Below, piece by piece: positions 12,001 through 15,000 of a DNA stretch of 64,000 bases. The DNA comes from Planctomycetota bacterium (GTDB taxonomy: Bacteria; Planctomycetota; UBA8742; UBA2392). How positions within the stretch are numbered: position 1 is the stretch's first letter; every line of letters begins with the position of its first letter. A program made the position numbers. The DNA lies in the NCBI GenBank assembly GCA_020638675.1, contig JACKID010000001.1, positions 1,518,225 through 1,582,224 of the forward strand, written 5' to 3'.

Positions 12001-15000
12001 ACCTGGGCGAGTTCCAGCCGGACGAGGAGTACACCGTCTACGTCCACACATCGGCGGGCTGGCAGGAAGTTGATTCCACCCGCGTTTCAACCGGCGCGAT
12101 CAGCTTCACCTGCGACCCGCAGCGGCTCTATCGCGTGATCGGCGCCGGCATCAACAGTCGCCCGTTCACGGCCAAGGCAGGCTCAGATGGGCCGGTGCTG
12201 ACGCGGTACTAGAAGCCCTGCCACTTGCGGTCTTCTTCCCACTCTTCTTCGGACATGACCTGCTTGCCGAGGACGTCCTCGAACGTCTTCTTCGCGCCGC
12301 GCGTTTCAGGGCCTTCGTTGAACAGGCGTCCGACGACATCAAGCAGCTTCCACAACTGCTCGGGCGTGCTGCCGGTGTTGAGCGCGCCCTGCACGTGACC
12401 CTTCAGTTGCGGCGCAACGTCGAGCGGAATCAGCGCGGCGACAATGCACAGGCTGCGCTGGCGCGGCTCGAGCAACGGGCGCGCGAGCACGCGCCCGTAG
12501 CCTTCGACGATGGCCCAGTCGGCGAGGTCAGGGCTGTTGGATTTGGCAAAACGGTCGATCTGGTCGGCCTTGTCTTTGTATATGGCGTCAAACAGCTCTT
12601 TGCCGCGCTTGCGGAAGAGCGCCATGTCGTCGCCCTCCAGCGGGTGCTCGCGCAGCTTGATCTCGCCGGTTAGCGGGTTGCCGGCCTTCTTGCACGCGTC
12701 CTTGAACGCAGCCAGCGAGTTCAACGCGCGCGGATAGCCCGCGAACAGGTGCGTCTGCAGGATCGCTTCGCGGATCAACTCCGGGTCAGGCCGCGGATCG
12801 AGCTTCAGCAGTGCATCAAACAGGCGGCGCGCGTGCTCGCCGTGGCCGTCTGCGGTGATCGCCGCTGCCATCGCCAGGACGGCGTCATCTCGATCCAGCG
12901 GATCAATGCCCGTCAGCAGAAAGCTGATCGTCGCCGGCTCAACTCGTTTCGCGATAGGCATGGTTCAGTTCGTCTGTTCCGAGTTCAGAGTTCCAGGTTC
13001 ACGGTTCACACTCTAACTCGGAACCGGGAACTCAGAACTCCGAACTCACGCCGGCGGCGCGACCCAGTGGGCGATCGTCTCCGGCAACTTGCCGTGCAGT
13101 GCGGCAAGGCGAAGCGTGTTCAGCGCTGTGCGGGCGGTGCGCCATTTCACCAGCTCGCGCTCGCCCGGCACGCGCAGGTGCCAGGCGCGAACTTCGTTGG
13201 CCATCGCGGCCGCGAGCCAGACGGTGCCGACGGGCTTGGCATCGCTGCCTCCGCCCGGCCCGGCGATACCAGTGACGGCCACGCAGATGTCCGCCCCGCT
13301 TTCGCGCTGGATGCCGCGTACCATCTCGCTCGCCGTTTCACCGCTGACGGCACCGTGGGACTTCAGCGTTCCCGCACTGACCCCGAGCCTGCGCTGCTTG
13401 GCGTCATTGCTGTAGGTAACCGCGCTCTCGAGAAGCACGTCGCTGCTTCCCGCTACGTTCGTCAGCAGGTGGGCGATCATCCCGCCGGTGCAGCTTTCCG
13501 CGCACGCAACCTTCAGTTGCTTCTCGCGCAGCAAGTCCACCGTACAGGTTTCCAGTTCAATGTTGCCTTCGGCGAACACCAGGTCGCCCAGCTCGGCCCG
13601 GGCCGCGTCGAGAATCGGTACGAGTATCTTGTCGGCGTCGGCCTGCTCGGTCGCGGCAACGCGCCAGCGCAAGCGCATCACGGCGTCATCTACCAGGATC
13701 GCGCCTTCCGCCTCTTTGCTTTCGAGCAACGACTTCACGCGCAGGTCGAGATCGCTTTCGGGAATGCCGAACACACGCAACTCTCGACTGAAGAAGCGCT
13801 CGTGCAAGCCGAATTCCTCAATAACCGCCGCCCTCAGCTCCTCGGCCCAGATGCCCTTCAGTTCTCGGGGCACGCCGGGCAGAACGGCGATGCCGCCTTC
13901 ACCGTGGCGGGCCAGAAAGCAGCTCGCCGTCCCGAATGCGTTGGCGATGAATTTTGACCCCTCAGGCCGCTTGCACTGTCGCTCGCTACCCTGGGGGAAC
14001 TTGCGCCCGACGGCCGCGTAGCGCTCGCTGAGTTTCGCCAGCGCGTCATGGTCGAGTTTTAGTTCCACGCCCAGCGCTGCGGCCACGGACTGCCGTGTAT
14101 TGTCGTCCACGGTCGGCCCGATGCCCCCGGTGGTCACGATGAACAGGCCCTCGGACAGCGCGGCTTTGAGGCGCGCCGTCAGCTCGTCCTGCCGGTCGTT
14201 CACGGAGAGGTGGTAGGCGACGTCAAAGCCAAGCTCGCCCAGTTCGCGCGCCAGCCACGCCGAGTTCGTGTTCACGATGAACCCGTGAACGACCTCGTTT
14301 CCAACCGCAATGATGCATGCCCGCCGTGCCATGGCCGCAGTTTCTATTGGCCGCTGGCCACTGGCCAGTGAGCAGTGTCAAATGCCGCGGTTGCCCAATA
14401 CTGACCACTGAACAGCGACGGAATCTGACGCTAGACTCAGCCAATGCCCGATTTCGACGGGATAATCTTTTCCGACCTGCACCTGTCCGGCGAGACGGCC
14501 GGGCTGAATGCACTGTTCGACAAGTTTGTCGAGCGCGTGGAGGGCACGCCCGAGATTGCCTGTCTGGGCGACCTGACCGAGTACTGGATCGGGCACAAGC
14601 ACCTGAGGTCGGAGTTCGGGCGCTACCTGAGCGACCAGATGGAGCGGCTGGCCAAGCCCGCAAGGCGAGCGATCTGGGTAAACGGCAACCGCGACTTCCG
14701 GTTTGCCGAGCGCGCGCGGCACATCGGCTACAAGGCCTTCCGCAACCGCTATGAGGGCGAGTTTGCGGGCGTGCAGGCAGACCTGGAGCATGGCGACCTT
14801 CTCTGCACGCAAGATCGCGCCTACCAGCGCTTCCGGCTCTGGTTCCGTAACTTTCCGTGGTGGGCGTTCGACTGGGTCACAACGGCCGACCAGGCGCACC
14901 GTCTGTGCCTGTACATGCGCAGCAAAAGCAAGGGCGACGAAGCGCGCAACGACCCGGAGCACTTCGGCATCCAGCCGGAGCCGGTGAAGCAGCGCGTTGC

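What the first reader, a model, noticed from the sequence alone, without database searches (positions are those of the whole stretch)
14348..14420. Orphan array of the same CNGTGGY/TGGCCAC heptamer repeats in the cinA-lpxH divergent promoter region
ggccgctggccactggccagtgagcagtg and the downstream tgaccactgaacag reproduce the heptamer units that flank the four-helix-bundle cassette 44 kb away. This is either a solo end left by excision or decay of such a cassette, or evidence that these heptamers are binding sites for a host or regulatory factor recurring in intergenic DNA. A related single unit occurs near 63249-63263.
Basis: seen in the sequence. Interest (0 to 1): 0.5.

Follow-up and report, generated by a model that had tools for sequence, protein, structure and literature searches.

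The report
ORF-less IVS-type heptamer repeats in promoter
The short 7-base repeats between cinA and the LpxH-like gene are real and belong to the same repeat family that brackets 'four-helix-bundle' (23S-IVS protein) genes in many bacteria, but here they carry no gene, are old and conserved, and most likely now serve as part of two back-to-back promoters.

Summary
Positions 14348-14415 hold TGGCCGC TGGCCAC TGGCCAG TGAGCAG, a 26-nt spacer, then TGACCAC TGAACAG. Tandem units of this type occur only here and in the two arms of the IVS-protein cassette (8 hits against 0.11 expected). The 'related unit' at 63249 is at chance level.

Eighty metagenomic IVS-protein genes show the rule. Upstream lies a (NNNCRGT)n array and downstream its complement (ACYGNNN)n, with fixed polarity. 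The variable triplet covaries between the arms and follows the protein lineage. ORF-less hairpins of the same units are common, and some still hold IVS gene fragments.

The window's element has both arm types and no IVS remnant, so it is not a 'solo end'. Its core is 100% conserved in the closest relative, where synonymous sites are only 45% identical. The conserved parts coincide with the -35 positions of two inferred leaderless promoters: cinA TGGCCA-17-GAAACT-6-ATG and LpxH-like TGAACA-17-TAGACT-6-ATG.

Best reading: an old ORF-less IVS-type heptamer element kept as promoter or regulatory DNA. Sister lineages carry unrelated heptamer arrays at the same site, so an origin in place cannot be excluded. 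Interest is moderate. The general link between IVS genes and heptamer arms appears undescribed outside 23S rRNA.

The parts
14348..14375 (.). Left heptamer array: TGGCCGC TGGCCAC TGGCCAG TGAGCAG. On the + strand it reads as two ACYG-type units followed by two CRGT-type units, joined at the palindrome CACTGGCCAGTG.
14376..14401 (.). Spacer or loop between the arrays. The first 10 nt (TGTCAAATGC) are conserved in L001; the remainder is variable.
14402..14415 (.). Right heptamer array: TGACCAC TGAACAG (ACTG-core units). It is inverted relative to 14362-14375.
14362..14385 (.). Block 100% identical to the ortholog in MAG HKST-UBA87 (L001), although 4-fold sites are only 45% identical.
14400..14418 (.). 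Second 100%-conserved block (ACTGACCACTGAACAGCGA). The CTGAACA part is also kept in L175 and L180.
14362..14367 (-). Inferred -35 of the cinA promoter (TGGCCA). It occupies the position held by TTGCGN in relatives L002-L009.
   Evidence: inference from alignment; no transcription start data
14339..14344 (-). Inferred -10 of cinA (GAAACT), 6 nt before the ATG, giving a leaderless geometry. nAnACT is conserved in L001-L009 and L011.
14409..14414 (+). Inferred -35 of the LpxH-like promoter (TGAACA), which is the last heptamer unit.
14432..14437 (+). Inferred -10 of the LpxH-like gene (TAGACT), 6 nt before the ATG. TAnACT is conserved in relatives.
12981..13049 (-). Second ORF-less heptamer hairpin, GTTC flavour (GAGTTCA x4, 9-nt loop, GAACTCN x4), between the cinA stop and the CMD-family gene start. 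The same hairpin is present in relative L180.
   Evidence: (dG -44 kcal/mol, z -5.4)
59226..59263 (-). Upstream (CRGT-type) arm of the IVS cassette.
58800..59207 (-). IVS / four-helix-bundle protein gene (PF05635, TIGR02436), lying between murG and murC.
58768..58797 (-). Downstream (ACYG-type) arm of the IVS cassette. It pairs with the upstream arm in the predicted fold.

Best explanation
The array is an ORF-less member of the heptamer-repeat family that forms the inverted arms of IVS (23S-intervening-sequence / four-helix-bundle protein) cassettes. The units have a constant CRGT/ACYG core and a variable triplet, repeated every 7 nt.

It entered, or grew in, the 111-bp divergent cinA / LpxH-like promoter region before this genome split from MAG HKST-UBA87. 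It has since been held by purifying selection because its units now lie in the core of two back-to-back leaderless promoters:
- cinA: TGGCCA (-35), 17 nt, GAAACT (-10), 6 nt, ATG.
- LpxH-like: TGAACA (-35), 17 nt, TAGACT (-10), 6 nt, ATG.

Shown: the repeat family, its link to IVS genes, the inverted layout, and the conservation.

Inferred: the promoter assignment, leaderless transcription, and whether the element descends from a decayed cassette or arose by the same array-forming process in place.
For: - Family: the tandem units occur only here and in the cassette arms.
- Rule across genomes: in 80 metagenomic IVS loci, 56 have an array upstream and 44 downstream. Strict runs of 3 or more units number 126 against 0.3 expected. 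Polarity is 50:3 CRGT upstream and 47:5 ACYG downstream.
- Covariation: the variable triplet is concordant between arms in 35 of 47 loci. It follows the protein lineage in 62 of 67 nearest neighbours against 0.45 by chance.
- ORF-less forms: hairpins of the same units are frequent, and some keep IVS gene fragments.
- Layout: on the minus strand the site reads U-arm x2, 23-nt loop, D-arm x2, U-arm x2, and folds with z -2.6. The core hairpin is kept in L001 (z -2.2).
- Selection: cinA 4-fold sites are 45% identical between the window and L001, yet 24-nt and 19-nt blocks of the array are 100% identical. The 13 variable nt fall exactly in the cinA -35/-10 spacer.
- Promoter geometry: nAnACT lies 6 nt before both ATGs in about 10 relatives. 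The -35 TTGCGN of relatives is replaced by TGGCCA here and in L001, and by TGGCCT in L175. TGAACA/TGAACT sits at the LpxH-like -35 in the window, L001, L175 and L180.
- Precedent: heptamer repeats near promoters alter promoter activity in Nostoc (10.1101/2022.06.06.494920).
Against: - There are no transcription start data. The generic sigma-70 scan finds no promoter here. TGGCCA and TGAACA match TTGACA in only 4 of 6 positions.
- Only two or three other genes in the window show the leaderless pattern, so no organism-specific -35 consensus could be derived.
- Conservation extends 15-20 nt beyond each -35, which a bare promoter does not require.
- Sister lineages carry unrelated heptamer arrays at the same site (ATCCAAA in L003-5, CCACCTG/CCTCCTG in L177). 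This points to a site-specific array-forming process that needs no IVS cassette.
- No IVS remnant is present.
- Strict 2-unit CRGT runs are not enriched in the window as a whole (10 against 10.8).
Confidence: 0.5

Rival explanations
1. The array arose in place as an STRR-like tandem heptamer repeat, by slippage amplification of a local heptamer such as the ancestral -35 CTGAACA. It is unrelated by descent to IVS cassettes, and the shared unit reflects a common array-forming bias.
For: The same intergenic spot carries arrays with unrelated units in sister lineages (L003-5 ATCCAAA, L177 CCACCTG/CCTCCTG). CTGAACA is present as a single unit in L180, as three units in L175 and as two here. Heptamer arrays of many unit types occur at about 8 per 100 kb in this clade, and also in Verrucomicrobia. 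Heptamer repeats are known to be over-represented in bacteria (PMC4692102; PMC4679880).
Against: The units match the resident cassette arms, including a shared 14-mer TGGCCAGTGGCCAG. They are arranged as inverted arms like ORF-less IVS hairpins elsewhere. There is no copy-number difference from L001; the two are colinear and differ only by substitutions.
Confidence: 0.25
2. The conserved CAGTG..CAGTG / CACTG..CACTG blocks are an operator. A sequence-specific protein, either a host regulator or the pentameric IVS protein itself, binds the heptamer units and co-regulates cinA and the LpxH-like gene.
For: Conservation extends well beyond the -35 hexamers, as an inverted pair of two-unit blocks. 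The CRGT core is constant across arm flavours while the triplet varies, as expected for a recognised motif. Arrays typically have 3-5 units, and the homolog XCC0516 is a homopentamer (2gsc; PMC4990558). An unidentified heptamer-binding partner is postulated in Nostoc.
Against: There are no binding data. The link between flavour and lineage is equally explained by common descent of arms and ORF. Whether L001 has an IVS gene is unknown.
Confidence: 0.15
3. The element acts as an RNA hairpin in a cinA 5' leader on the minus strand. It would be a mini-IVS processed by RNase III or would modulate mRNA stability, as rRNA IVS stems do.
For: The minus strand folds significantly (dG -33.4, z -2.6) while the plus strand does not. 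The same asymmetry is seen in L001. IVS stems containing heptameric repeats are RNase III substrates in Coxiella (PMC4990558). The sibling hairpin at 12981-13049 is clearly intercistronic and transcribed with cinA.
Against: The conserved nAnACT-6-ATG geometry places the likely start at the ATG, downstream of the hairpin. A promoter upstream of the hairpin would have to lie inside the LpxH-like -10 and start region, and none is evident. Across 60 cassettes the arms show no sense-strand bias in pairing (31 against 29).
Confidence: 0.08
4. It is chance resemblance or a neutral relic with no function.
For: The units are short and imperfect, and the single unit is not enriched.
Against: There are 8 matches against 0.11 expected for tandem units and 5 period-7 arrays against 0.22. 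Blocks of 24 and 19 nt are perfectly conserved against 45% identity at neutral sites.
Confidence: 0.02

Closest known systems
23S rRNA intervening sequences (IVS) with an S23p / four-helix-bundle ORF (Coxiella, Leptospira, Xanthomonas; PMC4990558)
   Same: Inverted complementary arms enclose a PF05635 ORF. Heptameric direct repeats, variable in number, lie in the upstream arm. ORF-less forms exist. The window's own cassette (58768-59263) has this architecture.
   Different: The window's elements are not in rRNA. The cassette sits in the murG-murC intercistronic gap. The element under study has no ORF and lies in a probably untranscribed divergent promoter. RNase III excision is not testable here.
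TAACTGA intergenic direct repeats of Beggiatoaceae, Cyanobacteria and Bacteroidetes (MacGregor 2015, PMC4679880), and cyanobacterial STRR heptamers
   Same: Tandem 7-nt units with 2-6 copies, intergenic, close to start codons, with an ACTG core (TAACTGA = ACTGATA in another register). Function is unknown and thought to be regulatory.
   Different: The variable triplet differs (GCC/ACC/AAC). Here the repeats are arranged as inverted arms and are linked to IVS-protein genes, a link not made in that paper (0 mentions).
Contiguous heptamer repeats in Nostoc recF/recO promoters (bioRxiv 10.1101/2022.06.06.494920)
   Same: Heptamer arrays next to or overlapping promoters. Deleting them changes promoter output, and an unknown binding partner is postulated.
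   Different: The units differ (TTTTGAA/TTCAAAA) and the phylum differs. There is experimental support there and none here.
Phase-variable heptanucleotide promoter repeats (H. influenzae hmw1A/hmw2A; PMC8262952)
   Same: 7-nt repeats in a promoter or 5' region that could tune expression.
   Different: Those are long perfect arrays with copy-number polymorphism. Here there are 2-4 imperfect units and no unit indel relative to L001. They are identical in three other assemblies, although these come from essentially the same population.
REP / MITE-like intergenic hairpins
   Same: Short imperfect palindromes in intergenic and intercistronic DNA. In relatives L001 and L177 a GC-rich REP-like hairpin occupies the spot where the window and L180 carry a heptamer hairpin.
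   Different: No near-identical dispersed copies are seen in the window. The stems are built from tandem heptamers. No RAYT-type or other transposase is associated.

Membership tests
IVS element (stem-loop with or without a PF05635 ORF) | Two complementary inverted arms able to form a stem | tested here: met
   The minus strand has dG -33.4 and z -2.6, and the core is kept in L001. The plus strand is not significant.
IVS element (stem-loop with or without a PF05635 ORF) | Arms built of heptameric repeats with CRGT (5' arm) / ACYG (3' arm) polarity | tested here: met
   Minus strand..TTCAGTGGTCAGT, loop, ACTGCTCACTGGCC... The rule was established on 80 loci.
IVS element (stem-loop with or without a PF05635 ORF) | PF05635 ORF, or a remnant of one, in the loop | tested here: not met
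   The loop is 23-26 nt. blastx against IVS proteins gives E > 1.
IVS element (stem-loop with or without a PF05635 ORF) | Lies inside a transcript (classically 23S rRNA) and is cut by RNase III | not testable with these tools
   It is not in rRNA. The promoter geometry suggests it is not transcribed. There are no RNA data.
Intergenic tandem heptamer repeats (STRR / TAACTGA class) | At least 2-3 head-to-tail 7-nt units, intergenic, near a gene start | tested here: met
Intergenic tandem heptamer repeats (STRR / TAACTGA class) | Same unit sequence as the described families (TAACTGA; STRR1-3) | tested here: not met
   The units are TGGCCAS/TGACCAC. Only the ACTG core is shared.
Phase-variable promoter SSR | Copy number varies between strains or close relatives | tested here: inconclusive
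   There is no unit indel relative to L001. It is identical in L172-L174, but those are 99.9-100% identical overall.
REP/MITE-like element | Many near-identical dispersed copies; associated transposase | tested here: not met
   The three heptamer loci in 64 kb all differ. No transposase is nearby. The whole genome was not available.

The most novel reading that the evidence does not exclude
The (NNNCRGT)n / (ACYGNNN)n heptamer arrays are the recognition sites of the pentameric IVS / Avd-like four-helix-bundle protein, with one CRGT box per subunit and typically 3-5 boxes. Cassettes, ORF-less hairpins and promoter-embedded arrays such as this one would then form a dispersed network through which the long-enigmatic IVS protein regulates, processes or mobilises nucleic acid. 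The cinA/LpxH-like array would be a conserved 'orphan operator' of that system.
Probability: 0.12. Interest if true: 0.8.

Novelty: new variant of a known kind. Interest (0 to 1): 0.45.

Why it matters
IVS / four-helix-bundle proteins (PF05635, TIGR02436) are among the most widespread bacterial proteins with no known function. How their cassettes arise and spread outside rRNA is also unknown.

This work shows that non-rRNA IVS genes across many metagenomic lineages are bracketed by polar, covarying heptamer arrays. It shows that these decay into ORF-less hairpins, and that one such ORF-less element is held under purifying selection inside a promoter. Together these results give a concrete and testable handle: defined DNA or RNA motifs for binding and cleavage assays.

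The results also connect three previously separate observations: rRNA IVS stems, cyanobacterial STRR / TAACTGA repeats, and heptamer repeats that modulate promoters. For genome annotation, they explain spurious 'SGQWSVVSGQ'-type N-terminal extensions on IVS ORFs, such as the 156-aa ORF call at 58800-59270.

Tried and rejected
- The exact-sequence look-up of the cinA product found nothing. The LpxH-like product worked but returned only the same population, so it says nothing about repeat variability.
- No relative lies closer than L001 (LpxH-like proteins at 74% or below), so covariation in this hairpin could not be tested.
- Rfam gave only sub-threshold miRNA-like hairpin hits on the 12981 hairpin.
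- The generic promoter and terminator scan found nothing.
- Strict CRGT/ACYG runs of 3 or more units are absent from the window because its units are degenerate. Strict 2-unit runs are not enriched (10 against 10.8). The family-specific pattern and the period-7 scan are the valid tests.
- The comparison of sense and antisense arm pairing was null (31 against 29). The duplex-energy measure separates own arms from shuffled arms poorly (-72 against -60), so I draw nothing from it.
- The 63249-63263 unit is rejected as chance.
- The perfect TTGACA at 14377-14382 (minus strand) is rejected as the cinA -35, because the spacer would be 32 nt.
- Literature searches for heptamer repeats with IVS / S23p / four-helix-bundle / Avd-like / GxxExxY found no description of repeat-armed non-rRNA cassettes. 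The library covers open-access papers only.
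Full report
**1. What is in the sequence**

The 111-bp gap 14333-14443 separates two divergent genes. One is cinA (13046-14332, minus strand; CinA, MoCF_biosynth and CinA_KH domains). The other is a metallophosphoesterase (14444-15235, plus strand). It matches the LpxH equivalog models below their cut-offs (121.8 against 134 bits) and is followed by hldE.

On the plus strand the gap reads TGGCCGC TGGCCAC TGGCCAG TGAGCAG (14348-14375), then 26 nt, then TGACCAC TGAACAG (14402-14415).

Positions 58800-59207 (minus strand) encode a PF05635 / TIGR02436 four-helix-bundle protein. Its closest solved homolog is XCC0516, PDB entry 2gsc. It lies between murG and murC and is flanked by GTGGCCC GTGGTCG GTGGCCA GTGGTCA (58768-58797) and CTGGCCA CTGGCCA CGGTCCA CTGACCA (59226-59263). 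These arms pair into one long stem in the predicted fold of the sense RNA.

**2. Is it more than chance?**

- The two-unit pattern TGRNCASTGRNCAS occurs 8 times against 0.11 expected. All hits are at the array and at the two cassette arms.
- A pattern-free scan for period-7 self-similarity finds five arrays in the window against 0.22 in dinucleotide shuffles. Period 7 gives the most arrays of the periods 4-12, though period 6 gives three.
- All five arrays are non-coding, and the window is about 13% non-coding. One apparent overlap is an artefact: the ORF caller extended the IVS ORF through its own upstream arm.
- The single unit TGGCCAS is not enriched (25 against 21).
- The 'related unit' at 63249-63263 is an isolated 9-mer in a region that folds no better than shuffles. 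I treat it as chance.

At 12981-13049, four GAGTTCA-type units, a 9-nt loop and four GAACTCN units form a strong hairpin (dG -44 kcal/mol, z -5.4) between the cinA stop and the next gene. cinA is therefore flanked by heptamer elements on both sides.

**3. What the repeat family is**

I fetched 80 metagenomic loci encoding relatives of the IVS protein (50-64% identity) and found a general rule.

- Presence: 56 of 80 loci have a heptamer array within 150 nt upstream of the gene and 44 of 80 just downstream. Many contigs are truncated.
- Enrichment: strict runs of at least 3 units number 126 against 0.3 in shuffles.
- Polarity is fixed. The upstream arm is (NNNCRGT)n in 50 cases against 3. The downstream arm is the complement (ACYGNNN)n in 47 cases against 5.
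- The variable triplet comes in flavours: GGT/GGC as in this window's cassette and array, TCT/TCC as in the 12981 hairpin, and TGC/TGT.
- The flavour is concordant between the two arms in 35 of 47 loci. It follows the protein phylogeny in 62 of 67 nearest neighbours against 0.45 by chance.

So the stem is supported by covariation while the CRGT core stays constant. Arms and ORF behave as one unit.

The same contigs hold 57 further arrays. Many are ORF-less hairpins with loops of 7-23 nt. Intermediates exist. Loops of 116, 78 and 56 nt still encode IVS residues 1-31, 56-69 and 1-14 (L086/L092, L096, L094). Cassettes therefore do decay into ORF-less heptamer hairpins.

Array density per 100 kb is 44 in the IVS loci and about 8 in the window and its close relatives. 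It is 1.8 in other cinA-bearing genomes. The arrays there that could be placed are mostly in Verrucomicrobia, plus a Tepidisphaeraceae MAG, and none is in the Alteromonas or Erwinia group.

**4. The element at 14348-14415**

Read on the minus strand it is ..GTTC AGTGGTC AGT, a 23-nt loop, ACTGCTC ACTGGCC, then AGTGGCC AGCGGCC. That is a complete up-arm / loop / down-arm unit plus one extra half arm, not a solo end.

The minus strand folds into this hairpin (dG -33.4, z -2.6). The plus strand does not (z -0.6). No IVS remnant is detectable, and only one IVS gene is present in the window.

**5. Comparative evidence**

The source is a Planctomycetes MAG (the exact IVS protein is P0001, on a 3.09-Mb contig). 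cinA orthologs from 11 related MAGs were recovered.

In the closest relative (L001, HKST-UBA87; CinA 87% identical) the intergenic region is colinear except for one 1-nt indel, with no whole-unit gain or loss.
- 4-fold degenerate sites of cinA are only 45% identical.
- Yet 14362-14385 (TGGCCAGTGAGCAGTGTCAAATGC) and 14400-14418 (ACTGACCACTGAACAGCGA) are 100% identical.
- The 13 nt at 14348-14360 and the middle of the loop vary.
- The core hairpin is retained in L001 (z -2.2).

The array core is therefore under purifying selection and is older than this species split.

Other lineages differ at this site.
- L175 has AGGCCAG-N14-CTGGCCT CTGAACA CTGGACG.
- L180 has only CCACTGAAC.
- L002, L006-L009 and L011 have no heptamers.
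- L003-L005 (ATCCAAA x3-4) and L177 (CCACCTG CCTCCTG CCCACTG) carry unrelated heptamer arrays at the same place.

Three other assemblies of the same population are identical, which says nothing about slippage.

**6. How it most likely works here**

Anchoring the orthologous regions on the two start codons shows a conserved hexamer exactly 6 nt before each ATG, with no Shine-Dalgarno sequence. The hexamer is nAnACT for cinA (GAAACT here) and TAnACT for the LpxH-like gene (TAGACT here). This is the geometry of leaderless promoters; that reading is inference.

Seventeen nt upstream of the cinA -10, relatives have TTGCGN. In the window and L001 that position is the unit TGGCCA (14362-14367), and in L175 it is TGGCCT.

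Seventeen nt upstream of the LpxH-like -10 lies TGAACA (14409-14414). This is the last heptamer unit, and it is kept in L001, L175 and L180 (as TGAACT).

The 13 non-conserved nt coincide with the cinA -35/-10 spacer. The pattern of conservation therefore fits two back-to-back promoters whose -35 regions are heptamer units. Conservation also extends 15-20 nt further upstream on each side, which leaves room for a bound factor.

I give about 0.5 to 'IVS-type heptamer element retained as promoter DNA'. The rivals are:
- an in-place STRR-like origin without any cassette (0.25);
- an operator for a regulator or for the IVS protein (0.15);
- an RNA hairpin or RNase III site in a cinA leader (0.08);
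- chance (0.02).

Origin and present function are partly independent questions.

**7. The resident cassette and its sibling hairpin**

In relatives whose MurG is 77-78% identical, an IVS gene (71-76% identical) sits at the same murG-murC junction. Its arms have the same flavour but different numbers of units (L161, L164). A 63% homolog sits elsewhere (L168). The cassette is thus old, inherited vertically and protein-coding under constraint, while arm length drifts.

The GTTC-type hairpin between cinA and the CMD-family gene is also present in L180, with a longer loop. In L001 and L177 it is replaced by a GC-rich REP-like hairpin, and it is absent in L003-5.

**8. Comparison with what is known**

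The Coxiella 23S IVS is a stem-loop carrying an S23p ORF. It is excised by RNase III and has a variable number of heptameric repeats upstream of the ORF (PMC4990558).

MacGregor described TAACTGA (ACTG-core) intergenic direct repeats in Beggiatoaceae, Cyanobacteria and Bacteroidetes, without linking them to IVS proteins (PMC4679880).

Heptamer repeats near Nostoc promoters alter promoter output. Heptameric repeats are noted as over-represented in bacteria (PMC4692102).

I found no paper describing polar heptamer arms around non-rRNA IVS genes, their ORF-less derivatives, or their retention in promoters. The library is limited to open-access papers.

**9. Verdict**

The element is a new variant of a known kind: an ORF-less, promoter-embedded IVS-type heptamer element. 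Interest is moderate (0.45). The broader rule it led to is worth a dedicated genome-wide study.

Noticed in passing
window 12981-13049: A strong ORF-less heptamer hairpin of the GTTC flavour (GAGTTCA x4 / GAACTCN x4; dG -44, z -5.4) lies between the cinA stop and the CMD-family gene start. The same flavour flanks a second subfamily of IVS genes in metagenomes. The hairpin is also present in relative L180 (552-640). In L001 and L177 a GC-rich REP-like hairpin (gagccccgcc..ggcggg) takes its place.
   Followed up: partly
window 58768-59263; L161, L164: The IVS cassette between murG and murC is kept at the same junction in relatives with MurG 77-78% and IVS protein 71-76% identical. Its arms have the same flavour but different unit counts. 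The mechanical ORF call (156 aa from 59270) wrongly extends the gene through its upstream arm ('MRASGQWTVASGQ...').
   Followed up: yes
L180 2800-3340: A GxxExxY protein gene (TIGR04256 / PDDEXK_3) is inserted between the LpxH-like gene and hldE. It is preceded by a decamer array (ACCACGAAGG x4), a duplicated copy of the ORF's own 3' end, and an inverted arm. This is a second kind of small-ORF cassette with tandem-repeat arms.
   Followed up: partly
window 14339-14344 and 14432-14437; L001-L011: Both divergent genes have a conserved nAnACT hexamer exactly 6 nt before the ATG and no Shine-Dalgarno sequence. This suggests leaderless mRNAs in this planctomycete clade.
   Followed up: partly
L003-L005 ~5920-5957 and ~2880-3003; L008 5020-5058; L009 5006-5119; L007 3593-3628; L177 upstream of 2001: Intergenic heptamer arrays with units unrelated to the CRGT core (ATCCAAA, CCAGCCA, CTCCTGC/GGCAGGA, CCTCCTG). 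They often lie between co-directional genes or just upstream of promoters. What generates 7-nt arrays in this clade is unexplained.
   Followed up: no
L021, L028, L037, L041 ~5935-5977: Verrucomicrobial MAGs carry an (AACTTTC)n heptamer array about 30-60 nt upstream of their cinA gene, in a position parallel to the one studied here.
   Followed up: no
L110 1413-1610: A tandem duplication of an 83-nt module (heptamer down-arm plus 51-nt spacer) lies directly after an IVS gene. L086 and L092 show a full IVS gene followed by a second, truncated copy between its own arms.
   Followed up: partly
window 63021-63051: An 8-nt tandem repeat (AGTACAAG, 3.9 copies, TRF score 41) lies in the intergenic region 62968-63358. 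It is not related to the heptamer family.
   Followed up: no
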